DNA of 64,000 nt, from assembly GCA_012813795.1 (NCBI GenBank), contig GCA_012813795.1_4087.1, one strand, 5' to 3'. Both the position numbers and the translations under genes were made by a program. Below are positions 23,605 to 48,016 of the stretch, piece by piece (the first letter of the stretch is position 1; each line of letters begins with the position of its first letter). The notes under the pieces were generated by a model. That model saw only the letters and a list, made by a program, of their open reading frames with translations, was not told where the DNA came from and ran no database searches. The DNA comes from a phage.

Positions 23605-24396
23605 TTAACCAATAATCATACCAAGTGGTTCACCACCATCTTTGTATCTCTTCAACTGTTCTTTAAGTTGTTCCTGGAGTTGCATACCTTCATTACGAAG
23701 TGTATCACCATCCATTGAAAATGTTCCTTGTGGTCCAGGCAAAGAAGCAAACTTAGCACGGTTGCGACCTAACATAATCATCGCTTCAGATAAAGCCCAA
23801 TCACGAAGCCACGGATAACTCATTTGACGTTGGAATAGTAGTGGTTCTGGGATGTTATGATACACATGAACCAGTACTTCTTCTGTGCCGCGAATATCAC
23901 GGTCAATAACCAGTTTCTTAGTCATGGGGTTAAACTGGAAAATAATCTCACGTCCAAACATACGACCTACTAATTCCTGAAACTGGAAACTGAAGTCATA
24001 GGTTGTTAAATCATAACCACCAGCGTTGCGAGCAGACGTTAGTAGATATGTGTTTGTAAATGCAATTGAAAATGGATCAACCGAGTTACCACTACCAGAA
24101 CTCAAATAACCATTACCATAACGATAAATTTTCTTAACAATTTCTACTTCAGTTGGTAGCATGTAAACTGATTGAGAATCATAGAATTTCATGCTTAAAA
24201 AAGCTTCTTCTTTTGATGCAGAACTCCATGCTCTGTAGTTTGATACCGCATTATCGATTGCGATTTCTAATTGTCCATCAGTAATTTCAACTTCAACAGC
24301 ACCAGCACCCAACATTTGTGTAATCACATCTTTTAATTTTTCACGGTGATCGTAATTTGGGGCATCTGGATTTCCACCCATATAGTCATATGACAT
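23605..24396 (-). CDS. Hypothetical protein (possibly structural)
   Basis: 263-aa ORF; GAGGTG ribosome-binding site lies inside the upstream hairpin. Confidence 0.6.
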   Translation of the reverse strand: MSYDYMGGNPDAPNYDHREKLKDVITQMLGAGAVEVEITDGQLEIAIDNAVSNYRAWSSASKEEAFLSMKFYDSQSVYMLPTEVEIVKKIYRYGNGYLSSGSGNSVDPFSIAFTNTYLLTSARNAGGYDLTTYDFSFQFQELVGRMFGREIIFQFNPMTKKLVIDRDIRGTEEVLVHVYHNIPEPLLFQRQMSYPWLRDWALSEAMIMLGRNRAKFASLPGPQGTFSMDGDTLRNEGMQLQEQLKEQLKRYKDGGEPLGMIIG

Positions 24397-24401
24397 AAAA
24401 A

Positions 24402-24441
24402 AGCACCTCTTTAATGTTTATATACATTATTTAGAGGTGCT
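24402..24441 (-). promoter_or_regulatory. Stem-loop covering the ribosome-binding site of the 23605..24396 gene
   Basis: AGCACCTCT ... AGAGGTGCT 9-bp inverted repeat with about 22-nt loop; one arm contains the GAGGTG ribosome-binding site. Confidence 0.35.
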
Positions 24442-24447
24442 ATTGAT

Positions 24448-24660
24448 TTAGCTTAGTCTATCGTACCAACAACGCAAATAAACTAAGTTAACAAAGTGTT
24501 CAGTATCTATCATATCAAGGAAACCAAATATACTAACTGAATATATATGTTTCCCATCATGATAGTATATTATATAGTCTTGATTTGGCTCAATCCAGTA
24601 ATGAGTATTCCCGACTATTAATTTATGATTATAAACACCTGTTAAAAGATGATCGCTCAT
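24448..24660 (-). CDS. Hypothetical protein
   Basis: 70-aa ORF. Confidence 0.5.
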   Translation of the reverse strand: MSDHLLTGVYNHKLIVGNTHYWIEPNQDYIIYYHDGKHIYSVSIFGFLDMIDTEHFVNLVYLRCWYDRLS

Positions 24661-25037
24661 TAACTTATCTTTGTACAGTTAGTGACAATGTGTTCAATAT
24701 CTTTTTTAGTGAATGGGCCGAGTACTAGAACCTCTTCCCCATTACCAAACATACTTAGTGGTACTGACTGCTGATTCGCAAGATATTCAATCTGCATCAT
24801 TTCATCCATGTCATCTGCTTCATAGACAACTTGTTCCAGTTCATTGTCTTTAATCCATGAATCCCAATGAGCTTTAAACTGTTTGGCTTCATATTCTTGA
24901 ACATAGTTAGGGGATGCTGGGTTGTACTGATGTAGCATAGTCATGCCAGCCATAACCAATTCTTTTGGTGATGGGGTTTTACCTTTCAGTACTACGATAG
25001 CTTGAATAGTTTTTGCTTTCACTTCATTAGCAGCCAT
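24660..25037 (-). CDS. Hypothetical protein
   Basis: 125-aa ORF. Confidence 0.6.
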   Translation of the reverse strand: MAANEVKAKTIQAIVVLKGKTPSPKELVMAGMTMLHQYNPASPNYVQEYEAKQFKAHWDSWIKDNELEQVVYEADDMDEMMQIEYLANQQSVPLSMFGNGEEVLVLGPFTKKDIEHIVTNCTKIS

Positions 25038-25049
25038 TTTATACCTCTA

Positions 25050-25358
25050 TTATAGGATGATTTTGTTGTCAGGGACAATCAACGCTGGCTTATCTTCTAG
25101 AGTCTTAATTGCTTCAACATAAGCATCAACCAGTGCAGGGTTTGCATCACTGATACTGATGATGTTAGATTTGAAGAAAATAACACCTTTTTCTGAACTA
25201 ATAAATTCTAGATAATCACGTAGAATGATTTCACCTTTTTCGTCAGTACCTAGCTGTGCTGGGTAGTTAACTACTACTGCTTCTGGAGCATCGGTTTGTA
25301 GAACTGCTAGTACTGGGCCAACGTTGTTGATGTTTAGTAGTTTAACGGTAATAGTCAT
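25050..25358 (-). CDS. Hypothetical protein (start moved to internal ATG)
   Basis: Track ORF 25050..25508 overlaps the upstream gene by 131 nt; ATG at 25358 has an AGGA ribosome-binding site and removes the overlap. Confidence 0.5.
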   Translation of the reverse strand: MTITVKLLNINNVGPVLAVLQTDAPEAVVVNYPAQLGTDEKGEIILRDYLEFISSEKGVIFFKSNIISISDANPALVDAYVEAIKTLEDKPALIVPDNKIIL

Positions 25359-25377
25359 TTTTGTCAAGTCCTTTTGT

Positions 25378-25854
25378 TTATTTGAGAATATATAAATGTT
25401 TTTCAGCATTAACCAGCCTGTGGTCAATGATTTCTTTGATAACGTTCCAGTTACCACCGCCCAAATCGGCTCCAATTTTCGGAAAGTGTACATGAACATT
25501 TCGTTCAATTTTACAGAAAAAATTCAAATGCATGAAAACGTCATCAATGGCATCATAGCTTACGTATTTTGCACCATCAGTTCCGTACCATTTTTGAGTA
25601 ATGCAGTTTGCGATAATCAAATCATCATTAATTGCTGAATATGCAATTTGTCCGGTTCTTAGAAAACCCATTCTCTTTTCATATTCTTTATAATCATCAT
25701 ATGCCTTTGGGTACTGCATTCTGAGTTCTTTTGCAAAACCAGAACCCATTTTACCTTGAGCATTACAACCATGAGCTATAATATGTAATGCAGTATGATC
25801 ATCAGTTACAGTACTGAATAATTCAAACAGATTTCCGTGATGTTCATGTATCAT
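25378..25854 (-). CDS. Macro-domain (ADP-ribose binding/processing) protein, putative
   Basis: HIIAHGCNAQGKMGSGFAKEL and HFPKIGADLGGGNW resemble macro-domain glycine-rich motifs; start set at ATG 25854 with GGAG ribosome-binding site (track begins at TTG 25890). Confidence 0.55.
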   Translation of the reverse strand: MIHEHHGNLFELFSTVTDDHTALHIIAHGCNAQGKMGSGFAKELRMQYPKAYDDYKEYEKRMGFLRTGQIAYSAINDDLIIANCITQKWYGTDGAKYVSYDAIDDVFMHLNFFCKIERNVHVHFPKIGADLGGGNWNVIKEIIDHRLVNAEKHLYILK

Positions 25855-25863
25855 GTGTTCTCC

Positions 25864-25896
25864 GAAAAGAAAAGGACTCGATAATCTCAAGTCCTT
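25864..25896 (-). terminator. Stem-loop upstream of macro gene (terminator or leader structure)
   Basis: AAGGACT ... AGTCCTT 7-bp stem followed on minus strand by TTTTC. Confidence 0.35.
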
Positions 25897-25908
25897 TATA
25901 TTATTAGG

Positions 25909-26166
25909 TTATTCTTCTTCACCGAAACGAATTTTCTTCAATTCTTTTCGATGCTTTCTTGCTATTGTACTTTTGTGAAGTCTATTACTACGTTTTGTGT
26001 CTTTTTCAATATACCAGCTATCTTCTGGTGGATTGAAGTCACAATAACCATCTTCCGTAATTGTTCCTAAGAATGCAGATTTTTTAGGAATATTTGTTTG
26101 AGCTTTAGTCTGAAATTGACCTTTTGCTAATTGTTCACGAAAACTGAGCATAATAGTATCTCCCAA
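25909..26166 (-). CDS. Hypothetical basic protein
   Basis: 85-aa ORF. Confidence 0.5.
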   Translation of the reverse strand: MGDTIMLSFREQLAKGQFQTKAQTNIPKKSAFLGTITEDGYCDFNPPEDSWYIEKDTKRSNRLHKSTIARKHRKELKKIRFGEEE

Positions 26167-26201
26167 ATTGTTAAGAAGAACTTGTTGTTCTTCAATATTA
26201 T

Positions 26202-26441
26202 TTAGGGGTTTTTTACAACCTCATGTGAAGCAATAAATGCTAAAATATCATCTTTACTAAACACTTCAATAATGTGAGAAATAGCAGCATCGTATTCTTC
26301 ACGTCTTGATGTGTATTCTTTCATTTCATGAATTTTCTTTTGAGCTTTTTGTTTTGATTGGTTGATATCTGGAGTTTCAAATTTAACTCCCAAACTGTCA
26401 GCCAATGCACGTGCTCGTGATGATACCTTATCGATATTCAT
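26202..26441 (-). CDS. Hypothetical protein
   Basis: 79-aa ORF. Confidence 0.5.
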   Translation of the reverse strand: MNIDKVSSRARALADSLGVKFETPDINQSKQKAQKKIHEMKEYTSRREEYDAAISHIIEVFSKDDILAFIASHEVVKNP

Positions 26442-26689
26442 TAGTTCCAGCGACCTTCTTTTAGCCCGTTATAAAAACCAGTATATCCACCAGGAACATA
26501 CTCATCATTTACGAAAATTTGTGGAACTTGACGAACTGGCTCACCGCAAATTTCTGATAGTTTAGCACCATCAATACCTTCAGAAACCACATCGATAAAA
26601 TCCATTTCAAATGAATAGTTCTCACAAATTGCTTTTGCTCTATCACAGAAATTACAACCAGTCGTGCGACCATAAATTTTCACTTTCAT
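26441..26689 (-). CDS. Glutaredoxin-like protein (T4 NrdC-like)
   Basis: GCNFC active-site motif near N-terminus, PQIFV and GGY downstream; 82 aa. Confidence 0.75.
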   Translation of the reverse strand: MKVKIYGRTTGCNFCDRAKAICENYSFEMDFIDVVSEGIDGAKLSEICGEPVRQVPQIFVNDEYVPGGYTGFYNGLKEGRWN

Positions 26690-26693
26690 ATAA

Positions 26694-27110
26694 CTATCCT
26701 TTATTTTTTTGAAACAATTTAACAGCTTTAATTATACTGTTACACATTCGTTCGGTCAAATACTTTTGACAATCTTGAACATCAATGTACATGAATTTAT
26801 CCAATTCTGGATGGCTTTTACCATATCGATTGGTATAAGTACTGTTACACTTCAGTTCATCCGGTTCGGGTTTGTATTTAGCTGTATAGAAAAATAAAAC
26901 TAATCTTTTCCCTTTCCTGTATGATACATCACCTAATAAGAGAAGATCCTTTTCATCAATCTCAAATCCTGTTTCTTCATAGCACTCACGAACAGCAGCT
27001 TCAGCAAATGTTTCATTGCCCTCGGTTTTACCTTTTGGTAAATCCCAATGCTTCTGTCCGTGTTGTGTGTCCAACAAGTATCTGACCATCACGATAAAAT
27101 ATAATGCCAC
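26694..27110 (-). CDS. Nudix hydrolase
   Basis: Canonical Nudix box GKTEGNETFAEAAVRECYEETGF; track start is GTG, an in-frame ATG lies at 27089. Confidence 0.85.
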   Translation of the reverse strand: MALYFIVMVRYLLDTQHGQKHWDLPKGKTEGNETFAEAAVRECYEETGFEIDEKDLLLLGDVSYRKGKRLVLFFYTAKYKPEPDELKCNSTYTNRYGKSHPELDKFMYIDVQDCQKYLTERMCNSIIKAVKLFQKNKG

Positions 27111-27196
27111 AACTATAACGCATAATCTTATCTCTTAATAGCAATGATGCCCAGATACAATTATTATATCAGAAGTCGTTCTCTTGTCCCAGAGTT

Positions 27197-28309
27197 TTAA
27201 AACATTTGTTGAATTGCTTCACAACGTAAATCTGAAACAAAATCACGGATTTCAGATGCTTCTAACTCACCGTCTTTTACCAGTTGTTGAATATCTGGAA
27301 GTACTACATCAGTGTAACGATCATATACCTTAATGATTAAATCTTCAAGGTCTAAATCAATCTCTTTACGTAGAATAAAATATTCCAGTACTTTGTAAAG
27401 GAATTCTTCACCGCCGTTATTCTTGATATTCATATCCAGTAATAATTGTCCCATTTCATTTGGGGTCTTTTTACGGAATGCCTTGATATCATCACGGAAA
27501 CGTTTGATGTAATTACTGAATTTAACGTACTTAACGGGCATTTTAATAGCACCATTCAGTACTGAATCCTCGCCAACTTCTTCTTTCTCAAGAAGCACAG
27601 ACCATAAGAAATATGGCTTATATGCTTCAGTACAATTATCAGAGATATGATCAATGAGTTCCAATGACTTTTTGGTTAATGTAGCATTAAATGCTTTTTC
27701 ATAGTAACCCAACTTACTTAGTGTTTTAAGGAACTTAGCTGGCTTTTCTTCTGACAGTGCTTTTTCAAATTCAACATAAACACGGTCTGGAACAAGGTGA
27801 TTTAGCTCACCAGACGCTACCATATCGATTGCAAGTGCTTCAGTAGTCTCGTGTATAGAGAAATCAGAATAACGCGTAGCAAAGCGAGCTAGACGTAATA
27901 CACGCAATGGATCTTCTTTGAAGTGCTCGGATACATGGCGTAGTACTTTATTCTTGATATCAGCTTTACCACCGTATGGGTCGATGTGAATTTGCAGTAC
28001 TGGATCATACGCTATTGCATTAATTGTAAGATCACGACGAAACAAATCTTGTTCCAGTGTTACACCTTTTGTATCCACTTCGAAGCCACCGTATCCAGTA
28101 CCAGTTTTTCGTTCAGTACGGGCTAATGCGTGTTCGTTACCTTCTGGGCTTAGATAAACTGGAAAATCTTTTCCAACCTGTTTATATCCAATACTTTCTA
28201 AGTATTTGATATCAGATTCAGTTGCACCAACAATGACATAATCTTTGTCCTTTGCTCTCTCACCGATTAATCGTGCCCTTACATATCCACCCACTAGATA
28301 TTTTTTCAT
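27197..28309 (-). CDS. tRNA nucleotidyltransferase (CCA-adding enzyme)
   Basis: N-terminus YLVGGYVRARLIG, DKDYVIVG, DFPVYLSP, ALARTERKTG, RRDLTINAIAYD matches the CCA-adding enzyme head domain. Confidence 0.9.
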   Translation of the reverse strand: MKKYLVGGYVRARLIGERAKDKDYVIVGATESDIKYLESIGYKQVGKDFPVYLSPEGNEHALARTERKTGTGYGGFEVDTKGVTLEQDLFRRDLTINAIAYDPVLQIHIDPYGGKADIKNKVLRHVSEHFKEDPLRVLRLARFATRYSDFSIHETTEALAIDMVASGELNHLVPDRVYVEFEKALSEEKPAKFLKTLSKLGYYEKAFNATLTKKSLELIDHISDNCTEAYKPYFLWSVLLEKEEVGEDSVLNGAIKMPVKYVKFSNYIKRFRDDIKAFRKKTPNEMGQLLLDMNIKNNGGEEFLYKVLEYFILRKEIDLDLEDLIIKVYDRYTDVVLPDIQQLVKDGELEASEIRDFVSDLRCEAIQQMF

Positions 28310-28312
28310 GTA

Positions 28313-28939
28313 TTACACCTTATTAATAGATTTAGTAATTCTACCATTGTTAATATCATCTTGTAAAATATCAATGCGTCTTTTTAAACCATTGATCACT
28401 TTATCACTAACAATATTTTTATATTCATCAATAATTTCATTCAAATAAATTATTTTTTCTCTCTGCCACGCCGCATGTGCTTCCTCTGGTGTATAAAAAT
28501 GACCCAATTTATAAGATTTTTTATTTTTCACTATTTCAGCACAATATGGTTTTGTACGTTCATTTAACATACCTTTTGATGGTTGTTTATACCAAACACC
28601 GACTGGATATTGTGTATTTGAACGCCTATCAATAATACAACTGTTTACTTTATGAGGAACAAATGAGCATGTTTCAGGTGAATAAATTTTTGATTTACCA
28701 TCGATAATATCTTTATCTAAAAAGAAATCATCTTGAATAAAATTTTCAATAGCCCAATTATGAAAATTTTCATAATTACGCCATTCTTCACATACAGATG
28801 TACCAGCATAAGATGTATGTCGCTTTAATGATTTTTCAGAATAACATCGTTCAATCATTCTTGCCCAGTATCCGTAAAACTTATTTTTTCTAGCTTTACC
28901 ATATTTTTTGGAATCATAAATTCCAAATCCATATACCAT
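28313..28939 (-). CDS. Hypothetical protein with YxxWxxMxxRC motif
   Basis: 208-aa ORF; motif recalls phage DNA-binding or homing-endonuclease-associated families but is not assignable. Confidence 0.6.
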   Translation of the reverse strand: MVYGFGIYDSKKYGKARKNKFYGYWARMIERCYSEKSLKRHTSYAGTSVCEEWRNYENFHNWAIENFIQDDFFLDKDIIDGKSKIYSPETCSFVPHKVNSCIIDRRSNTQYPVGVWYKQPSKGMLNERTKPYCAEIVKNKKSYKLGHFYTPEEAHAAWQREKIIYLNEIIDEYKNIVSDKVINGLKRRIDILQDDINNGRITKSINKV

Positions 28940-36797: not shown

Positions 36798-37161
36798 TTA
36801 GAAAATCCTGTAAAGATGTAGTAGACATTGGACTATCAGCACCATCATACCACAGTGATGTATATGGCTGAACTGAACTAATATCAATACACAACCCTTC
36901 ACGCTCACATTTTCGAGCGAATTCTTCAGTAGTTAGTTTGTTACCAAAAGAAATCTCAAATTCATAACTAGACATATCAATATCAGTACTGTAAATCAAT
37001 GCACCATCATATGTAATATGGAGTTTAGAATCTGCGTCAAAAAGACGATCTGAAATAGTTTCATAATCATCTTCAGGAACTGCTTCAATAAGACGTGCCA
37101 TTAGTCCAGATGTTACGCGGTAATCACTCATATATATTCTCCAAAAGAAAAGGAGAGTCAA
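36778..37161 (-). CDS. Hypothetical protein
   Basis: 127-aa ORF. Confidence 0.55.
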   Translation of the reverse strand: MTLLFFWRIYMSDYRVTSGLMARLIEAVPEDDYETISDRLFDADSKLHITYDGALIYSTDIDMSSYEFEISFGNKLTTEEFARKCEREGLCIDISSVQPYTSLWYDGADSPMSTTSLQDFLNANQKD

Positions 37162-37181
37162 TATGACTCTCCATGTTTATA

Positions 37182-39560: not shown

Positions 39561-39586
39561 AAAAAAGGACTTGATTTCTCAAGTCC
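39561..39586 (-). terminator. Rho-independent terminator after the HNH gene
   Basis: GGACTTGA-tttc-TCAAGTCC perfect 8-bp stem followed on minus strand by TTTTTT. Confidence 0.6.
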
Positions 39587-39599
39587 CTATTATAACATA

Positions 39600-40943: not shown

Positions 40944-41369
40944 TTAGCGTTTATCGATCATTGTTTGTACATGTTCTACGAGATGTACGATTCTGGAATC
41001 ACCTGATTCATACTTATCTTCGATCTCAACCTTAAATTCATCTTCAAGTTCCATGATCATTTCTACCCAGTCCAGTGAATCAAATTTGAATTTTTCTTCA
41101 ATTTCTAAGGAGGTTAAATGTAAATTCATCAGTACATCTGCCTCTGATACATCACCATAACGTCCAGAAATGAATTTTGCAATTGCTTTCTCAACGTCAG
41201 TTGGTCCACGTGTACGGTATTCTGGTTCAAGGAACCATTCACCCTTATTGATAGCTTCTAATTCTAGTTTAATTTCATGCATTACTTTATAACGATCAGT
41301 ACTTTTATGGATGCGGCTAACTTCGCGATTCAGTACACGTAGTGCATCAATAATTGTTGAATTCAGCAT
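40944..41369 (-). CDS. Acyl carrier protein-like protein
   Basis: C-terminal FDSLDWVEMIMELEDEFKVEI matches the ACP phosphopantetheine-attachment DSL helix-II region. Confidence 0.6.
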   Translation of the reverse strand: MLNSTIIDALRVLNREVSRIHKSTDRYKVMHEIKLELEAINKGEWFLEPEYRTRGPTDVEKAIAKFISGRYGDVSEADVLMNLHLTSLEIEEKFKFDSLDWVEMIMELEDEFKVEIEDKYESGDSRIVHLVEHVQTMIDKR

Positions 41370-41378
41370 ATAATCCTC

Positions 41379-42620
41379 TTATTTTTTACCATACCACTGC
41401 ATTTCTCGAATATCGATTAGAACTTTTGCAGCTAGTTGAATGTTTGGTTTCTTTGGTAGAACTGACTTAGGATACACCACATTGCGGATATAGTCAACCT
41501 TTTCATTGAAATAATCCATGACTTCTTCATATTTCCATTTGCCGTTGCGGATATCCATTAGCATATCAGCATCAGGACGTTTAACAAGGATAATACCGCT
41601 TTGTAATGCTTCTTCGGCACTATTTAGCAGCCTGATCGTATGCATAGCATGTTTTAAATCGAAGCCGTGCTGTGATTCCATAAGAGCACGTTTAGCATTA
41701 CGATTCTCTTTCCATTTGTGATAACTTTTACGGTTCTCACTGTTCTCACTGTATTCTTTTTCATTGAATTTGACAATGAGTTCAGGTCGCACTTTCAATT
41801 CTTCAGTACTGCGTTCTTTGTTGAAATAACGTAAAGAACCATCAGCGTTAATTGTACTTTCATTAGGATTGATAATAACACCAAAGATATTTTCACCGTA
41901 ATGAATTAATTCGTACCCATTGTTATAATCCAATAAGTTGAAATCACGGTCTAGTACTTTATCAGTACTGTAATTATGTACTAAACGTACAAAATGATAC
42001 TGTTTCAACGGATGAGTTGAAACTAACTGCAATGAAGTATCACGCATGTATTTTTCAAAATCAATTTTCTTAGCATTAAATGGATGTAGTTTAGAAGTAT
42101 CTAAACGTTCTACCAAATAGTGTGGGAAATTTTCATACATCCATGCTAAAGTTTCATCTACTGGAAAATCTTCTAAGATTTCATTTAGACGTTTTTCAGC
42201 AATACGCTCTTTATCCATCCACCCGTGGTGATTAGACATACGCTTAACCTGATTATATGCATAACCGGTATAAGAGAATGCAATCTTAGAACTAAGTAAT
42301 TGTTGATTGAATGTACGTAGATAATCATAGATTTCAGTACTTTCTACGATGTGTTCAGGATCGACCCATAGTGATTCAAGAATATTTGGGTTAGCCTCTG
42401 TATATAGTCTTAAGTACTGGTTTAGTTCATAGAATTTAGTATCTTCTTCTCTTGAATCAGAAACTTCCTTTACATTATAAAAAGGCGTAAGGATGAATTC
42501 TTTGTTAGCAAGAAAAATACCACGATAATCCGTATCACTTTCAGGTGTACTGGTTCCATACGCTTGTGAACCTGCTAAGTGCTTCACAATTGTTTGTTCA
42601 AGAAATTTGTTATTATTCAT
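41379..42620 (-). CDS. Pol-beta-superfamily nucleotidyltransferase (function unknown)
   Basis: N-terminal HLAGSQAYGTSTPESDTDY fits the GS...DxD minimal nucleotidyltransferase motif; 413 aa. Confidence 0.5.
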   Translation of the reverse strand: MNNNKFLEQTIVKHLAGSQAYGTSTPESDTDYRGIFLANKEFILTPFYNVKEVSDSREEDTKFYELNQYLRLYTEANPNILESLWVDPEHIVESTEIYDYLRTFNQQLLSSKIAFSYTGYAYNQVKRMSNHHGWMDKERIAEKRLNEILEDFPVDETLAWMYENFPHYLVERLDTSKLHPFNAKKIDFEKYMRDTSLQLVSTHPLKQYHFVRLVHNYSTDKVLDRDFNLLDYNNGYELIHYGENIFGVIINPNESTINADGSLRYFNKERSTEELKVRPELIVKFNEKEYSENSENRKSYHKWKENRNAKRALMESQHGFDLKHAMHTIRLLNSAEEALQSGIILVKRPDADMLMDIRNGKWKYEEVMDYFNEKVDYIRNVVYPKSVLPKKPNIQLAAKVLIDIREMQWYGKK

Positions 42621-43018
42621 AGATGTAATGTTAGCTCCTTAAGAAACCCATTATAGTACTTCATGAAATCTTTATGAAGAACTTTGTATTCTGATAAACT
42701 AAAACCTAGATTGATTATAGTATCTTCTTGAAAGAACTTTTCTTCTTCGGATAAATCCAGAGAAATAGATTGTTTGCCACCATTTAATATTTTAGTAAAG
42801 TGTAAACCATCATTATTGATTTCAACGTACATGAAGTTATTTTCACGGTCACGAGGGCAAACAATATTAATGGAACTTTCACCAGTATCATCGTATTCGA
42901 ATGATATTACATCATACTCCCCGATTCCATAAAATTGTTTATCACTCTTGTAACCACTATATACTTTTTTATACGAATCCATCTGTCTTATGGTGCTATA
43001 CACATCATCAAGATCCAT
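42617..43018 (-). CDS. Hypothetical protein
   Basis: 133-aa ORF, 4-nt overlap with neighbour. Confidence 0.6.
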   Translation of the reverse strand: MDLDDVYSTIRQMDSYKKVYSGYKSDKQFYGIGEYDVISFEYDDTGESSINIVCPRDRENNFMYVEINNDGLHFTKILNGGKQSISLDLSEEEKFFQEDTIINLGFSLSEYKVLHKDFMKYYNGFLKELTLHL

Positions 43019-43021
43019 ATA

Positions 43022-43525
43022 TTAACTCCTGTAATATTGTAAGTATTCGTTCTTTGCATCATCCAATTCTTTTTGTTCCTGAATTTTCTTGTCGATATCT
43101 TTCACGTTAGTAATACTGTTATATAGTGCGTGAAGTACAAGAAAATCAGATACAGAAGTTGAAAAATCCTTCCACCCACCCGACATTTTAATACGCACAC
43201 GTATATCACGTCTGTCCATCCAGAACATGAACCCTCGATTCCCACGTAAATCATTAATCATATACACTTTAAAACAAGAATCTCGTGTGCTGCTTTCTCG
43301 TCTTTCAAAATCTACATGAATACTGAACAAGTTTTTTGAACAGTACTTACAAAATGCATAGATAACAGGATCACATTTTGAAAGAAGATATTTGTTTTGA
43401 ATAATTTCTCTGCGATCTTTGTCTGATTTAATATTAGGTACTAATAAAGTACTTTTGTTTAAAATCAACGCAACTAAGTACTGAAGAATATCATTATCTT
43501 TTACTTTATGTTTACCGAAGATCAT
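43022..43525 (-). CDS. Hypothetical protein, paralog family member 1
   Basis: Shares SDKDRREIIQNKYLLSK-type motif with the next two genes. Confidence 0.6.
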   Translation of the reverse strand: MIFGKHKVKDNDILQYLVALILNKSTLLVPNIKSDKDRREIIQNKYLLSKCDPVIYAFCKYCSKNLFSIHVDFERRESSTRDSCFKVYMINDLRGNRGFMFWMDRRDIRVRIKMSGGWKDFSTSVSDFLVLHALYNSITNVKDIDKKIQEQKELDDAKNEYLQYYRS

Positions 43526-44025
43526 TAGTATAATCCTTTTAGTTTATTAAATTCATTAAGTTTATGCTGCTCGTATTCTAACTTCTTGTACTTTGTTTCA
43601 AGCTCACGAAGTGCAACGAGTAAATGAAACAAAAACATTTGTTCATGTTTAGGTAGAATATTCGCATCTCCGTTAATATAAACAAATGTATGTTTTTCAT
43701 CATAATCTTTAGATGAATATGTTACTGCATTAAAATCAACCTTAGTTTCGGTATCAAACAATTTTACACGGTTGATATGATTACCATATATGAATACTGG
43801 TTCATATAACCAACGTTCACCGTATGGTTCTTTAACTAGGTCAGTGATTAGTTTCATTAGAGAATGAGAACTTAACATTTCTTTAATTTTAAGTATAGTT
43901 CTACGATCTTCATCAGTACTGATAATTTCTTTTAAAGAATAGCTTTTCATCAGTACTGGAAGAATTAATGTACACCACTCTACATTTTCTCTTTTGTGAT
44001 CATTATTTTTCTTTTTGAAAAACAT
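43525..44025 (-). CDS. Hypothetical protein, paralog family member 2
   Basis: STDEDRRTILKIKEMLSSH ... PYGERW, clearly related to 44035..44595. Confidence 0.6.
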   Translation of the reverse strand: MFFKKKNNDHKRENVEWCTLILPVLMKSYSLKEIISTDEDRRTILKIKEMLSSHSLMKLITDLVKEPYGERWLYEPVFIYGNHINRVKLFDTETKVDFNAVTYSSKDYDEKHTFVYINGDANILPKHEQMFLFHLLVALRELETKYKKLEYEQHKLNEFNKLKGLY

Positions 44026-44034
44026 AGTAACCTC

Positions 44035-44595
44035 TTAATATAAATCAGTTATTCTCTTTTGGATTTTGAATTTACGCTGTTCTTCTTCAATTTGTGATAA
44101 CTTTTCTTTAATATCTTCAGCACCAATAATCACATGGAACAGGATCATTAACTCATCATCATCAAGCATATCATAATGAACACCGAAGTTTGAAGAAACA
44201 ACACATGACAAATCTCTTGATTGAATGATAGTTTCTTCGGTTCTGTGTTCAATCCCTGCTGGTGTATACTCAACCTTAAACATGATTGCATTTTTTAAAT
44301 CGCGTAGTATGAATTCTTCATCACCACCCCACAGTTTTTTTTGAACCATAGACCAACGATCACTGAATGGATTTTGGGTGTATTCTGCCAGTAATCCATA
44401 TAGTTTATGCTTACTTAACTTGTACTTAAGTTCGATAAGTGATTTACGATCATTATCGGTTTTCACAAAATCTTTAAGAGTTACACTTTTGCATAGCAAA
44501 CGAACTACTAGTGTATTCTGAAAGTGCTGCTCTTTTTCTTTTAAACGTTGTAACTGTGCGGGTGACAGTGGTGGTCTAAAACGTGATTGTACCAT
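44035..44595 (-). CDS. Hypothetical protein, paralog family member 3
   Basis: KTDNDRKSLIELKYKLSKH ... PFSDRW; AGGAGG ribosome-binding site. Confidence 0.6.
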   Translation of the reverse strand: MVQSRFRPPLSPAQLQRLKEKEQHFQNTLVVRLLCKSVTLKDFVKTDNDRKSLIELKYKLSKHKLYGLLAEYTQNPFSDRWSMVQKKLWGGDEEFILRDLKNAIMFKVEYTPAGIEHRTEETIIQSRDLSCVVSSNFGVHYDMLDDDELMILFHVIIGAEDIKEKLSQIEEEQRKFKIQKRITDLY

Positions 44596-44627
44596 AGATT
44601 CCTCCTAGTTTTTTAGCATTATACAGA

Positions 44628-44656
44628 TAAAAGAAAAGCCTGTCAATAGACAGGCT
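44628..44656. terminator. Rho-independent terminator after the fibre-like operon (T-tracts on both sides)
   Basis: AGCCTGTC-aata-GACAGGCT perfect 8-bp stem; TTTTCTTTT on the minus side and TAATTTTTT on the plus side. Confidence 0.7.
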
Positions 44657-44663
44657 TAATTTT

Positions 44664-47432
44664 TTAACTCCAACGAGTACCAGATTGTGATGGTAACCCA
44701 GAACTAGCTGGGATAGCAGAACCACGATTGTAGGTACTTGGGCGGTATAGCAAGAATCTGGACACTTTTTCAGACTCGATTGATGCAATACCATTAGCAT
44801 CAGTTACTATCTTACCAATGTAGGTTGATGTCATAGTTTCTGATAATTGATATAGTGATATCTGATACGAAGCTGTAGATGTACCTCTATCCATAACCGC
44901 ATATATGTAGAATGTTGAATTATCTGGTGTAGTACTTATGGTAGATAAGTCTATCATAGTCGGTGGTATCTTTGCAAACTTTCCACCCAAGAAAACTGGT
45001 ACTTCTTGTGAAAAGTACACGTTGAACCCTTGTGCCACATCCTGTGAAGCAACAACTAAGTACTGTGATATCGTTTCATTACCAGATATTAGTTTATCCA
45101 TATCTGCTTCAGTAGTACCACATACAGCAAAAACTGATTTAGTTTGATAATCGTTTTTGTTCATTTGGTAATATCCAAACCCAATCCCTGGAATTGTACC
45201 TATATCAAATTGTGCGTTTGAAATATAAGTTGTTTCCATATATCGTTGACTTGAAATAATACCATTTTTCACTTTAGCAATCATGTTAGGATAACGAGTC
45301 CATCCTGGGGTATCAATGCCATATAAAATGTTCACACCTAAGTAGTTAAAACCACTAAACTTAGCAACCGTCATACCAGCCCAACGTTTGATCATTTCAT
45401 TTGGTGAAATTTGGAATGTATTCGTGATTGATGTATATCTTGCTGTATCAACACTAATACCACGTAAAATTATAGTACCACTTGTACCCAGTGCACTACA
45501 TGATATTTCGGAAAAAATAATATAACACACGTTGGTAGTACCGTTTAGTGCAGAAGTGACTGCAATAGATTTAGAATATGTAGTATCAGGTACATAATAA
45601 AAAACAGTTTTATGTTCAGTTATTCCAGTCAATCCAGCTTTAGCAACGGCATTATAACCTATACCTGATAATGTAGTTCCTGAAATTTCATATCTATCAC
45701 TGTTAAAGTCCATTGTAACAGGGTCGAATTTTCCATAAGCTGGTTTATCGATACCTTCTATTAAAGAAGATCCATAAGTGCTGACATTTCCATTGGCATC
45801 AACCAATGTTACCATACCTGCATATTTGTAATCAGTACTTAAATAGTGTCTATTACCTGATGGTGCAAAACCATTCATTGTGGTATTTTGTTCCAAGTTT
45901 TTATAACTATAAGTTGGATTCTCACCTATTTCAGTAAAAACTGTACTATCATAACCATAAGAAATTCCATCAGCAGTACCAGAACATGCAACAAGTATCT
46001 TACGTTTATCAACGAAACGAACACCTATTAAGTTTTCACCTACAGGTGAACCATAAACGGGCATTACTTCTACGCGTTTTAAATTACTACCAGTACGTGT
46101 TTTAGCAACCCAACTATCATAAGGTGTACCAGAAACTTTGTATGTTTGTACTGCATAGGTCGGCATGGATGACCATCTTGCTTTGGTAGTGAAAACAAAA
46201 CCATCAGAAGTTTGACAGATTGAACCATAGTTACCAAGTGCACCATCATAAAACCCTGTAAAGTTTTCCATATTGATTGAAAACGGGTTTCTCACTGTTA
46301 TACTGCCAGTTGATGCATTAGCTGATACTCTGATTGGACCACGTTCAGAACCGTCAAGTGTCATTGTTTTAGTACTGATATCATATGTAAAGCTAATGCC
46401 AAGTGAATATACACTAGATGTTTTTGTTTCAGTAAAGACACGAAACCCTGGATATATCGCTACTCTTATTTTTGTACCATCAGGGCTAAGAACTGCTTGG
46501 GTATTAAACGTGTAATGTTGCCAGTCATCGATTTTGGAAACCCCATTATCATATGCTATTAGTGCATCACCACCTGAACCCAATACTGAATAGCTATCAT
46601 AAACGCGAATATTATTTGAAGCTGAATATGTTACATCTCGTATAGTTCTTCCTGAATAACCACTAATTTGTGTTACTGTCGAAACTGAACCAGTATTAAA
46701 TGCAGTTAAAGGTACTGTGTATATGATAAATGCACAACCGCGAACACTATTAAGAACACTTGAATCCCTACACCATATATAAACTGAATCATTTACGATG
46801 TGTGCATAGATTGGTTTATTTGTTATTGCTGTTTTTGGAATTCTACAGTGTTTATGAGCAGATTCATTTAATGTTTCATTTGTTAATGTAAGGTAGTATG
46901 ATGCTCTATCAGTTGATTCCCAAAATAGTAATTCATATGCATTTGACCCATAAAATTCATAAATGTAATCAGTGCTTGGTAGCACAGAAGGTCTATACAT
47001 CGTGTTGGTTGTAATTATATTATCTTGAGTTAGTGTTTCTATATCTCTTATATTTTTAATATAAGCATAATAGTAACCATACGAACTTCCATTTGTACCT
47101 GCACGTAAAATTACACCAGTACCATCATTTTCAATGATACAAGGTTGCATTATTTTTGCAAATGAAAAGGAAGAAGCACCTTCAAATGTACCGTTAATAC
47201 TCATCGGTAGGTAATCTTGATCACCTACCCTTGAAACTGGAAGCATATCAAACATCTGATCTACTTCCGCTTTGTCATAATATTGGTAAGTGATTTTACC
47301 AGCAGAATCAGCAGGGAATCCATTAAAGGAACGTAATGCATACTTTCCATTAATTTTCAAATTCCCTAGTATTTCTGCGTTTCCTATAATTCGTCTCGAA
47401 GCCATATATATTCCTTTACCATTCTGTCCCAC
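44664..47432 (-). CDS. Large fibre-like structural protein (tail fibre or receptor-binding candidate), paralog 2
   Basis: 922 aa; N-terminal LPVSRVGDQDYLP and C-terminal GSAIPASSGLPSQSG..W module are shared with 48017..50716. Confidence 0.5.
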   Translation of the reverse strand: MGQNGKGIYMASRRIIGNAEILGNLKINGKYALRSFNGFPADSAGKITYQYYDKAEVDQMFDMLPVSRVGDQDYLPMSINGTFEGASSFSFAKIMQPCIIENDGTGVILRAGTNGSSYGYYYAYIKNIRDIETLTQDNIITTNTMYRPSVLPSTDYIYEFYGSNAYELLFWESTDRASYYLTLTNETLNESAHKHCRIPKTAITNKPIYAHIVNDSVYIWCRDSSVLNSVRGCAFIIYTVPLTAFNTGSVSTVTQISGYSGRTIRDVTYSASNNIRVYDSYSVLGSGGDALIAYDNGVSKIDDWQHYTFNTQAVLSPDGTKIRVAIYPGFRVFTETKTSSVYSLGISFTYDISTKTMTLDGSERGPIRVSANASTGSITVRNPFSINMENFTGFYDGALGNYGSICQTSDGFVFTTKARWSSMPTYAVQTYKVSGTPYDSWVAKTRTGSNLKRVEVMPVYGSPVGENLIGVRFVDKRKILVACSGTADGISYGYDSTVFTEIGENPTYSYKNLEQNTTMNGFAPSGNRHYLSTDYKYAGMVTLVDANGNVSTYGSSLIEGIDKPAYGKFDPVTMDFNSDRYEISGTTLSGIGYNAVAKAGLTGITEHKTVFYYVPDTTYSKSIAVTSALNGTTNVCYIIFSEISCSALGTSGTIILRGISVDTARYTSITNTFQISPNEMIKRWAGMTVAKFSGFNYLGVNILYGIDTPGWTRYPNMIAKVKNGIISSQRYMETTYISNAQFDIGTIPGIGFGYYQMNKNDYQTKSVFAVCGTTEADMDKLISGNETISQYLVVASQDVAQGFNVYFSQEVPVFLGGKFAKIPPTMIDLSTISTTPDNSTFYIYAVMDRGTSTASYQISLYQLSETMTSTYIGKIVTDANGIASIESEKVSRFLLYRPSTYNRGSAIPASSGLPSQSGTRWS

Positions 47433-48006
47433 TATTCACATCTGGTGTACCAGAACTGATAGGGATAGCTGAACCAATTTTTGTAGCACTTACTCTGAAG
47501 TCGTCAAATCTTGACACTTTATTTATACTGACCCCTGTAATGCCATCTGGGAAAACTGTCATTTGTCCTATGTACATATTAACATTACTTTCAGGGCGTT
47601 GAGTTTTAGAAATGATGTAGTCAGCTACCCCAACATCTAATATAACATATACATAATGTGTTTCAATATTAGTTCCAGTAACGCCTGGGTCCGTTATTGT
47701 TTTAGCAGGGAGGGTATAAACCGCTCCCGCCATGAACAATGGTAATTCTTTACTGAAAGTTAATTTGAACCCAGCAGCAGTAATACCTAATGGTTCAGTA
47801 CTGTAAAGTGAACCAAATTGTGATAACGGAAAGGAACTGGTAATGTAATTCACATCATCTGTACTCATGAGTGGTACATCAACATTCCCATTAGCATCAG
47901 CTTGATACACATTACCAGAACGATCAGTTATCGTGGTCCCAGTATTTTTTCCTTGTGATTTAACGGAAGCATACGCTTCCACATCAGATCTAAATTTATA
48001 AGCCAT
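47416..48006 (-). CDS. Small fibre-related protein carrying the shared C-terminal module
   Basis: 196 aa ending KVSRFDDF...GSAIPISSGTPDVNSGTEW, same C-terminal module as both large paralogs. Confidence 0.45.
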   Translation of the reverse strand: MAYKFRSDVEAYASVKSQGKNTGTTITDRSGNVYQADANGNVDVPLMSTDDVNYITSSFPLSQFGSLYSTEPLGITAAGFKLTFSKELPLFMAGAVYTLPAKTITDPGVTGTNIETHYVYVILDVGVADYIISKTQRPESNVNMYIGQMTVFPDGITGVSINKVSRFDDFRVSATKIGSAIPISSGTPDVNSGTEW

Positions 48007-48016
48007 ATTATCTCCA

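What the first reader, a model, noticed from the sequence alone, without database searches (positions are those of the whole stretch)
43022..44595. Three tandem paralogous genes sharing a D-x-D-R motif
Three consecutive 166-186-aa proteins share (S/T)D(K/E/N)DR(R/K) followed by a hydrophobic and basic helix; members 2 and 3 also share P(Y/F)(G/S)(E/D)RW. The block lies between a terminator and the late fibre-like operon and carries a candidate extended -10 promoter. Diversifying tandem paralogs in early regions often act on host processes.
Basis: seen in the sequence. Interest (0 to 1): 0.5.

Follow-up and report, generated by a model that had tools for sequence, protein, structure and literature searches.

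The report
Orphan early paralog trio, jumbo phage
Three neighbouring genes of a RaK2-like giant E. coli phage are true, ancient copies of one another. They belong to a small protein family of unknown function with no known structural relative, they are probably switched on early in infection together with a tRNA-repair enzyme, and what they do remains a guess.

Summary
Window 43022-44595 carries three back-to-back genes on the minus strand: A (186 aa), B (166 aa) and C (167 aa). They are real full-length paralogs (BLASTP A-B 2e-15; profile-profile A/B-type vs C-type E 5e-14). Two confident AlphaFold models show the same layout: four helices, five strands, one long C-terminal helix.

The window comes from an Asteriusvirus jumbo phage, 98% identical to Escherichia phage A4. 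The family (phrog_18641/phrog_7868) has only 28 clusters among 1.84 billion proteins. It occurs in 2-4 copies per genome in RaK2-like phages and has no Pfam, NCBIfam, PADLOC or significant PDB match.

A terminator fused to a perfect TTGACA-17-TATAAT promoter separates the genes from the upstream fibre-like genes, which carry the late TATAAATA motif. This arrangement is conserved across genera. The three genes are tightly packed with a 133-aa gene and a RlaP RNA-repair nucleotidyltransferase. Their phAPEC6 homologues are absent from the virion proteome.

They are the most divergent genes locally, yet under purifying selection (dN/dS about 0.16), and the duplications are old.

Best guess (confidence about 0.35): early, non-virion binding proteins for host takeover or counter-defence. 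The function is untested. Interest is moderate.

The parts
44636..44657 (-). Intrinsic terminator hairpin ending the upstream fibre-like gene (AAGCCTGTC-TATT-GACAGGCTT followed by TTCTTTTAT)
   Evidence: Terminator scan. RNA fold gives -17.5 kcal/mol, z = -6.1 against shuffles. The same hairpin is conserved in 121Q, L012, L008, L009, fHe-Yen9-04 and GAP32.
44618..44646 (-). Sigma-70 consensus promoter TTGACA-17 nt-TATAAT. The -35 hexamer lies in the loop and 3' arm of the terminator hairpin. The predicted transcription start is near 44611.
   Evidence: 12/12 match. It is one of only two perfect matches in 64 kb. The fused terminator/promoter is conserved upstream of the first family member across Asteriusvirus, Eneladusvirus, Mimasvirus and metagenomic relatives.
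44035..44595 (-). Paralog A, 186 aa (phrog_18641), preceded by AGGAGG at 44601-44606
   Evidence: AF2 model pLDDT 91.2. 100% identical to A4_498.
43525..44025 (-). Paralog B, 166 aa (phrog_18641)
   Evidence: Its start lies 9 nt after the stop of A.
43022..43525 (-). Paralog C, 167 aa (phrog_7868). Its start overlaps the stop of B (TAATG).
   Evidence: AF2 model pLDDT 86.9 with the same element order as A.
42617..43018 (-). Conserved 133-aa acidic protein (phrog_22376, unknown function) in the same operon
   Evidence: 60-65% identical in 121Q and RaK2.
41379..42620 (-). RlaP-family (PF10127) Pol-beta nucleotidyltransferase, 413 aa. Its start overlaps the stop of the 133-aa gene.
   Evidence: Pfam E 2.1e-17 and phrog_388. 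RlaP adds 1-2 NMP to damaged RNA 3' ends (PMC12776372).
39565..39588 (-). First strong terminator-like hairpin downstream; probable end of the transcription unit (A-B-C-133aa-RlaP-ACP-like-124aa-104aa-HNH)
   Evidence: Terminator scan. Inference only.
44664..47432 (-). Context: upstream fibre-like late gene (phrog_3573). The real start is probably ATG 47405 (913 aa, as in A4_497).
   Evidence: Its paralogue, the 899-aa gene at 48017-50716, has a virion-detected homologue, gp323c, in phAPEC6.
50748..50755 (-). Context: T4-type late promoter motif TATAAATA, just after a terminator and 30 nt before the 899-aa fibre-like gene
   Evidence: ATAAATA is the predicted late/structural promoter in the related phage CBB (PMC5259590).

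Best explanation
A, B and C are three anciently duplicated members of an orphan alpha/beta protein family confined to RaK2-like jumbo phages. They are the first genes of a host-RNA-polymerase (sigma-70) transcription unit that starts at a fused terminator/promoter right after a late fibre-like gene. That unit continues, tightly packed and probably translationally coupled, into a conserved 133-aa protein and a RlaP RNA-repair nucleotidyltransferase.

The most likely reading is that they are made early, stay in the cytoplasm and are not virion parts. They would act as small binding proteins in host takeover or counter-defence. The conserved helical core (KS..L....D..R...I..KY.LSK) would be the shared functional site. 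The variable five-stranded sheet would set target specificity. The long amphipathic C-terminal helix would mediate oligomerisation.

Shown here: paralogy, common fold, family distribution, promoter and terminator anatomy, synteny, absence from one virion proteome, and evolutionary rates. Inferred: early timing, oligomerisation, binding to variable host factors, and a counter-defence role.
For: - Paralogy and common fold.
- Perfect TTGACA-17-TATAAT promoter with an AGGAGG ribosome-binding site, set against TATAAATA upstream of the fibre-like genes. The same three promoter classes were predicted in the related phage CBB, where RpoD-like promoters mark the presumed early genes.
- The fused terminator/promoter is conserved in five other phages or contigs spanning three genera.
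- phAPEC6 homologues gp319c-321c are absent from the 62-protein virion proteome, while the flanking gp323c, gp314c and gp315c are present.
- The proteins are soluble, with no hydrophobic segments.
- The family is always clustered upstream of RlaP: 3 copies in Asteriusvirus, 2 in RaK2, and 4 each in fHe-Yen9-04 and GAP32. In the last two it is interleaved with a Thg1-like tRNA-His guanylyltransferase, DUF4326 and an N4-cytosine methylase.
- RlaP repairs damaged RNA and tRNA.
- A, B and C are the most divergent genes locally: 33-38% identity to 121Q, against 81-87% for NrdD, NrdG, the RlaP NTase and the HNH gene, and 70-76% to L012, against 87-98% for most neighbours, though the ACP-like gene (75%) is comparable.
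- Divergence concentrates in the sheet region, while helix 47-61 is the most conserved part.
- The heptad-like single hydrophobic stripe in the distal C-terminal helix fits a coiled-coil contact.
Against: - Pairwise dN/dS is about 0.16 for A and B and 0 for A against A4, so no positive selection is detected.
- The paralogs form old orthologous lineages with fixed gene order. That fits a stable housekeeping role as well as an arms race.
- Several polar residues are conserved across all paralogs (D47, R50, K57, Y58, S61, terminal Y). This hints at a common ligand or partner rather than diverse host targets.
- Early timing rests on promoter sequence alone. No transcript data exist for this phage group in the literature searched.
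- Absence from a virion proteome is negative evidence from one phage.
Confidence: 0.35

Rival explanations
1. Accessory or scaffold subunits of the phage RNA-repair machinery. Oligomeric head-plus-stalk proteins would hold damaged tRNA or RNA ends, or recruit the RlaP, Thg1 or ligase enzymes. This would be analogous to the XRCC4/XLF/PAXX paralogs that scaffold ligase IV and Pol-beta-family polymerases in DNA end joining.
For: - Linkage to RlaP is invariant in every genome or contig examined, including L009, where a family member abuts RlaP and the upstream gene is not fibre-like.
- The family is interleaved with Thg1 in Eneladusvirus and Mimasvirus.
- Gene packing down to RlaP is tight or overlapping.
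- Polar residues are conserved in all paralogs.
Against: - Foldseek finds nothing.
- Partners of a highly conserved enzyme (RlaP 87% identical to 121Q) would be expected to be conserved like the 133-aa protein (60%), not at 33-38%.
- The proteins are near neutral to mildly basic (pI 7.8-9.3), not strongly RNA-binding in composition.
- rV5-like phages carry RlaP without this family. The one candidate there, 4MG_155, failed profile comparison.
Confidence: 0.2
2. Assembly chaperones or adaptors for the adjacent fibre-like proteins, in the manner of Tfa, gp38 or gp57A-type factors encoded just downstream of fibre genes.
For: - The family directly follows a fibre or tail-protein gene in the window, A4, 121Q, RaK2 (after tail fibre ORF534), fHe-Yen9-04, GAP32 and L008.
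- Its size (160-190 aa) resembles that of Tfa proteins.
- Like the fibres, these genes are hypervariable.
- The window has three fibre-like genes and three paralogs.
Against: - A strong terminator and a separate sigma-70 promoter lie between the fibre gene and A, whereas the fibre genes carry TATAAATA.
- Copy number does not track fibre number. RaK2 has 10 fibre or spike proteins and 2 copies.
- In Eneladusvirus and Mimasvirus the copies are interleaved with RNA- and DNA-modifying enzymes, not fibre genes.
- In L009 the upstream gene is unrelated to the fibres.
- Alleles recombine independently of the fibre genes. Against A4, A and B are 99-100% identical while the 899-aa fibre is 92%. Against L012, A is 70% and the 922-aa fibre is 87%.
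- There is no Pfam or structural similarity to known chaperones.
Confidence: 0.1
3. Early DNA- or RNA-polymerase-binding regulators that use the conserved helical segment as a nucleic-acid or polymerase contact, for example to redirect host transcription.
For: - First position in a sigma-70-driven operon.
- The conserved helix displays R50, K57, Y58 and S61 on one face.
- Mildly basic pI.
Against: - No helix-turn-helix or other DNA-binding family was hit by any of 27 members, even at E below 10.
- The conserved linkage is to RNA-repair genes, not to the phage sigma or regulator genes.
Confidence: 0.1
4. The resemblance is compositional or due to chance, and the ORFs are not related genes.
For: The region is AT-rich (32% GC) and the proteins are rich in K, E, L and I.
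Against: Composition-adjusted BLASTP gives 2e-15. hhalign gives E 5e-14 over the full length. The predicted folds are the same. Orthologues are conserved with dN/dS of 0-0.17.
Confidence: 0.01

Closest known systems
PHROGs families phrog_18641 and phrog_7868 (hypothetical proteins such as 121Q gp502-504, RaK2 ORF001-002, phAPEC6 gp319c-321c, A4_498-500)
   Same: Direct membership: A 5e-33 and B 1e-23 to phrog_18641, and C 2.4e-26 to phrog_7868, with cross-hits between the two. Synteny is the same in all these phages.
   Different: Both families are catalogued as 'unknown function' and kept separate. Here they are shown to be one family with one fold. The same family also covers four genes each in Yersinia phage fHe-Yen9-04 and Cronobacter phage GAP32.
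XRCC4 superfamily (XRCC4, XLF, PAXX, SAS-6): beta head plus long coiled-coil stalk scaffolds
   Different: Scores are in the twilight zone and there is no sequence similarity. The helices lie N-terminal to the sheet instead of being inserted in it. Foldseek gives no significant hit. Dimerisation could not be tested.
Phage tail-fibre assembly proteins (lambda/Mu/P2 Tfa, T4 gp38 and gp57A)
   Same: Small proteins encoded immediately downstream of fibre genes, and hypervariable.
   Different: Separated from the fibre gene by a terminator and driven by a different promoter class. No sequence or fold similarity. Copy number is not tied to fibre number.
Fast-evolving early accessory or counter-defence genes of T4-like phages (e.g. 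the nrdC.x region that holds T4's own RlaP, NrdC.11; Dmd, Arn, the IPI locus)
   Same: Small, sigma-70-driven, lineage-restricted genes that exchange by recombination, clustered with RNA-repair and modification enzymes.
   Different: No homology to any of them. The paralogs here are old, positionally fixed and under purifying selection. They are not virion-packaged, unlike the internal proteins.

Membership tests
phrog_18641 / phrog_7868 (uncharacterised phage protein families) | Significant full-length match to the family profile | tested here: met
   A 5.1e-33 (residues 19-186), B 1e-23 and C 2.4e-26, with reciprocal weaker hits to the sister family.
One superfamily uniting the two PHROGs | Profile-profile homology over the full length and the same predicted fold | tested here: met
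   hhalign probability 98.2%, E 5.4e-14, 143 columns. The AF2 models of A and C have the same element order.
Tail-fibre assembly chaperones (Tfa / gp38 / gp57A type) | Co-transcribed with, and immediately downstream of, the cognate fibre gene | tested here: not met
   The genes are downstream, but a terminator (-17.5 kcal/mol) and a separate 12/12 sigma-70 promoter intervene. The fibre genes carry TATAAATA.
Tail-fibre assembly chaperones (Tfa / gp38 / gp57A type) | Sequence or fold similarity to a known chaperone family | tested here: not met
XRCC4 superfamily | N-terminal beta-sandwich head with an inserted helix-turn-helix, followed by a coiled-coil stalk | tested here: inconclusive
XRCC4 superfamily | Homodimerisation through the stalk | not testable with these tools
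   Only monomer prediction was available. The heptad-like hydrophobic stripe in residues 162-186 is compatible with dimerisation but does not prove it.
Known anti-defence proteins (Acr and similar) | Homology or clear fold match to a characterised inhibitor | tested here: not met
Virion-packaged internal proteins (T4 IPI-III type) | Presence in the virion | tested here: not met
   phAPEC6 gp319c-321c are absent from the 62-protein virion proteome. This is a single phage and negative evidence.
Helix-turn-helix transcription regulators | Match to an HTH family or fold | tested here: not met
   None of the 27 family members hits an HTH Pfam family at E below 10. No HTH proteins appear in the fold searches.

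The most novel reading that the evidence does not exclude
The family is a new fold of oligomeric head-plus-stalk proteins that work with the phage tRNA-repair enzymes (RlaP, Thg1, CCA-adding enzyme). One version is an RNA-break-repair scaffold analogous to the XRCC4/XLF/PAXX paralogs of DNA end joining. The other is a set of paralog-specific inhibitors of different host anticodon nucleases. Either version would add an unrecognised protein component to phage counter-defence against RNA-targeting immunity.
Probability: 0.15. Interest if true: 0.75.

Novelty: new member of a known kind. Interest (0 to 1): 0.4.

Why it matters

This work turns one such set into a defined target. It is a single family with a confident predicted fold that has no solved relative. 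Its conserved motif is mapped. It has a conserved early-type promoter. Its linkage to RNA-repair enzymes is invariant across at least four genera.

If these proteins prove to be inhibitors of host RNA-targeting defences, or partners of RlaP, they would extend the known phage toolkit against anticodon nucleases. If they are only structural helpers or regulators, the finding is routine.

The fused terminator/promoter, with the -35 hexamer inside the hairpin, is a compact late-to-early insulation element that could be useful for annotating these genomes.

Tried and rejected
- **Library searches.** Pfam, NCBIfam and PADLOC scans of A, B and C and their neighbours gave nothing for the paralogs.
- **Per-member Pfam scan.** Scanning all 27 family members at E below 10 to look for weak consistent signals found none. 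Eleven unrelated families were hit by one member each.
- **PDB sequence profile search.** One chance-level hit, E 0.09.
- **4MG_155 lead.** This rV5-like phage gene lies next to a CCA-adding enzyme and was a weak BFVD hit. It is not supported: the family HMM gives E 3.1 and hhalign probability is 0.8%.
- **Positive selection.** Pairwise Nei-Gojobori tests did not support it, except for a mildly raised ratio in C against A4 (0.57, few sites).
- **Other searches.** No extra paralogs in the window. No Rfam families or tRNAs in the window.
- **Literature.** Searches for transcriptomics or functional work on these genes in Asteriusvirus or RaK2 found none.
- **Recurrent -35-in-hairpin elements.** A search elsewhere in the window found one weak candidate at 37172..37152, which was not convincing.
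Full report
**What is there**

The finding's coordinates match three consecutive ORFs on the minus strand: A 44035-44595 (186 aa), B 43525-44025 (166 aa) and C 43022-43525 (167 aa). Each has a Shine-Dalgarno sequence. A and B are 9 nt apart, and the stop of B overlaps the start of C. C is followed 3 nt later by a 133-aa gene, whose stop overlaps the start of a 413-aa gene.

The window is 98% identical in this stretch to Escherichia phage A4, a 355-kb Asteriusvirus of the RaK2-like jumbo phages. There the genes are A4_498-500, annotated 'hypothetical protein'.

**Is the paralogy real?**

Yes.
- Composition-adjusted BLASTP gives A-B 2e-15 over the full length, A-C 3e-6 over the N-terminal 60 residues, and B-C 0.012.
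- A and B fall in phrog_18641 and C in phrog_7868, with cross-hits.
- A profile of 14 A/B-type sequences against a profile of 6 C-type sequences gives hhalign probability 98.2%, E 5.4e-14, over 143 columns covering nearly the full length.
- The AlphaFold2 models are confident: A has pLDDT 91.2 and pTM 0.82, and C has pLDDT 86.9 and pTM 0.78. Both have the same order of elements: a variable N-terminal helix, a short helix, two further helices, five beta strands, and a helix of about 40 residues running to the C terminus.

Conservation across 27 representatives peaks at residues 34-62 of A: L34, K36, S37, L40, D47, R50, I54, K57, Y58, L60, S61. The beta region is the most variable and carries the indels. 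The C-terminal Tyr is nearly invariant.

The 'P(Y/F)(G/S)(E/D)RW' motif is an A/B-type feature. No other member lies in the window.

**How big is the family?**

An exhaustive HMMER search of 1.84 billion cluster representatives found only 28 proteins. All but one (a 2,668-aa protein matched only over short stretches) are 115-209 aa, and the sequences retrieved show no domain fusions.

tblastn finds the family in 45 phage records, all RaK2-like phages of Escherichia, Klebsiella and Salmonella. The family profile also detects four members each in Yersinia phage fHe-Yen9-04 (Eneladusvirus) and Cronobacter phage GAP32 (Mimasvirus).

Copy number is 2 in RaK2, 3 in Asteriusvirus, and 4 in Eneladusvirus and Mimasvirus. 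A rough tree and best-hit analysis show that the copies form positionally conserved orthologous lineages. C-type groups with 121Q gp504 and RaK2 ORF002. A and B are sisters, next to RaK2 ORF001. The duplications are therefore old, not a recently expanding array.

**Regulatory anatomy**

The 68-nt gap between the upstream 922-aa gene and gene A holds two elements.
- A strong terminator hairpin at 44657..44636 (-17.5 kcal/mol, z = -6.1).
- A perfect sigma-70 promoter, TTGACA-17-TATAAT, at 44646..44618. Its -35 hexamer lies in the loop and 3' arm of that hairpin. It is followed by AGGAGG and the ATG.

This is one of only two 12/12 matches in the 64 kb.

The same fused terminator/promoter precedes the first family member in 121Q, in metagenomic relatives L012, L008 and L009, in fHe-Yen9-04 and in GAP32. 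In RaK2 the two elements are separate.

By contrast, the 899-aa gene that opens the upstream fibre-like cluster has a terminator followed by the T4-type late motif TATAAATA, 30 nt before its start. That motif is otherwise depleted in the window (3 copies found, 8.8 expected).

In the related phage CBB, RpoD-like promoters were assigned to presumed early genes and ATAAATA to structural genes (PMC5259590). However, the terminator lies at the upstream end of the block, and the promoter is a full consensus rather than an extended -10. Early timing is inferred from sequence. No transcript data were found.

**Not virion parts**

In phAPEC6 the homologues are gp319c-321c. The published 62-protein virion proteome lists the flanking gp323c (homologue of the 899-aa protein), gp314c and gp315c, but not gp319c-321c.

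**Neighbours**

The 413-aa gene is a RlaP (PF10127) Pol-beta nucleotidyltransferase (E 2e-17).
- RlaP was predicted to restore nucleotides lost from RNase-damaged RNAs before ligation (PMC7824862).
- It has since been shown to add one or two NMPs to damaged RNA 3' ends and to be needed to restore function of heavily damaged tRNA (PMC12776372).

Every genome or contig examined keeps the family immediately upstream of RlaP. In fHe-Yen9-04 and GAP32 the four copies are interleaved with a Thg1-like tRNA-His guanylyltransferase, DUF4326 and an N4-cytosine methylase. In L009 a member abuts RlaP and the upstream gene is not fibre-like.

The first strong downstream terminator in the window is at 39588..39565. 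The predicted unit is therefore A-B-C-133aa-RlaP-ACP-like-124aa-104aa-HNH.

**Evolution**

| Comparison | Conserved neighbours | Fibre-like proteins | A / B / C | Other |
|---|---|---|---|---|
| Window vs 121Q | NrdD 86%, NrdG 81%, RlaP 87%, HNH 82% | 40-53% | 35 / 33 / 38% | 133-aa protein 60% |
| Window vs L012 | RlaP 93%, 133-aa protein 98.5% | 922-aa 87% | 70 / 76.5 / 94% | - |

Nei-Gojobori estimates give dN/dS of 0.16-0.17 for A and B. Their dS is 1.35 and 0.90, against 0.18-0.53 for the 133-aa gene, RlaP and the fibre-like genes. Two downstream genes, ACP-like and the 104-aa gene, are intermediate at about 0.8. The extra divergence therefore reflects old alleles exchanged by recombination, not relaxed or positive selection. 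Against A4, A has 5 synonymous and 0 non-synonymous changes. C has 5.5 and 13.5 (ratio 0.57).

All three are functional genes under constraint. Allele swapping resembles that of host-range or counter-defence loci, but it is not proof of either.

**Structure and function**

No solved structure matches significantly.
- Foldseek against the PDB gives a best E of 0.12.
- BFVD returns only uncharacterised jumbo-phage proteins.

The distal half of the C-terminal helix has a single hydrophobic stripe with 3-4 spacing, a conserved Gln at a core position, and charged flanks. This is compatible with a coiled-coil contact. The proteins are soluble and neutral to mildly basic.

**Interpretation**

I commit to early, non-virion binding proteins serving host takeover or counter-defence (confidence 0.35). 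In this reading the conserved helical face is the common site and the variable sheet the specificity element.

The main rival is a scaffold or accessory role in the RlaP/Thg1 RNA-repair pathway (0.2). It explains the invariant linkage and the conserved polar residues. It fits poorly with divergence far above that of the enzymes.

A fibre-chaperone role (0.1) is disfavoured for four reasons:
- the terminator and the switch of promoter class;
- a copy number unrelated to fibre number;
- interleaving with RNA and DNA enzymes in other genera;
- independent recombination of the alleles.

A regulator role (0.1) has no positive support beyond position and a basic helix. A compositional artefact is excluded.

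**Novelty and interest**

The genes are already deposited and catalogued as hypothetical proteins and as PHROGs of unknown function.

New here:
- the two PHROGs are unified into one family;
- there is a confident fold without a solved relative;
- the conserved motif is mapped;
- the fused terminator/promoter is conserved across genera;
- the linkage to RNA repair is invariant;
- the evolutionary pattern is described.

This is a solid but moderate lead. It is one of many orphan paralog sets in jumbo phages, made more testable.

Noticed in passing
window 44618-44657 (-); also L002 7940-7980, L012 3903-3945, L008 6320-6365, L009 1415-1455, L010 1328-1365, L013 2473-2513: The terminator hairpin and the next promoter are fused: the -35 TTGACA sits in the loop and 3' arm of the hairpin, and the T-run forms the spacer before TATAAT. 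This compact element is conserved upstream of the first family member across Asteriusvirus, Eneladusvirus, Mimasvirus and metagenomic relatives. RaK2 has the two elements separated by about 60 nt.
   Followed up: partly
window 50748-50755 (-) and 47520-47527 (-): TATAAATA, the T4-type late promoter motif, is depleted in the window (3 copies against 8.8 expected). Two of the three copies lie on the coding strand upstream of the fibre-like genes. One directly follows a terminator, 30 nt before the 899-aa gene.
   Followed up: partly
window 41369-41379 (junction between the RlaP NTase and the ACP-like gene): The window, and metagenomic contig L012, lack the tail-fibre gene pair that lies here in A4 (A4_503/504), 121Q (gp508/509) and phAPEC6 (gp314c, a virion protein). 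This is a roughly 3.4-kb presence/absence polymorphism of a fibre module.
   Followed up: partly
window 44664-50716 (-): The 899-aa, 196-aa and 922-aa fibre-like proteins (phrog_3573 and relatives) share a C-terminal module of about 120 aa ending in G-T-R-W. The 196-aa protein looks like a stand-alone copy of that module. The same C-terminal ending occurs in 121Q, fHe-Yen9-04, GAP32 and L008.
   Followed up: no
window 47405-47432 (-): The mechanical ORF start of the 922-aa gene (GTG 47432) overlaps the preceding gene. The A4 annotation (913 aa) implies the ATG at 47405.
   Followed up: no
window 60344-60372 (-): A second perfect TTGACA-17-TATAAT promoter lies in an intergenic gap, about 35 nt upstream of an ATG. 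It is not embedded in a hairpin.
   Followed up: no
window 40944-41369 (-): A 141-aa protein has a weak phosphopantetheine-attachment (acyl carrier protein) signature below the Pfam threshold, and matches phrog_18343 and the ACP PHROGs. An ACP-like gene is conserved at this position in RaK2, GAP32, fHe-Yen9-04 and phAPEC6.
   Followed up: no
window ~24000-28400 (-), by homology to A4_536-541: The same window also encodes a CCA-adding tRNA nucleotidyltransferase/phosphodiesterase homologue (27197-28309), a nudix hydrolase and a macro-domain protein. These are further RNA-repair or ADP-ribose-processing candidates about 15 kb downstream of the paralog block.
   Followed up: no
window 43022-43525 (-) vs A4_500: Paralog C is only 91.7% identical to its A4 orthologue, while A and B are 99-100% identical. 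The changes cluster in the N-terminal tail and the first strands (dN/dS 0.57). This suggests a local recombination patch or relaxed constraint in C.
   Followed up: partly
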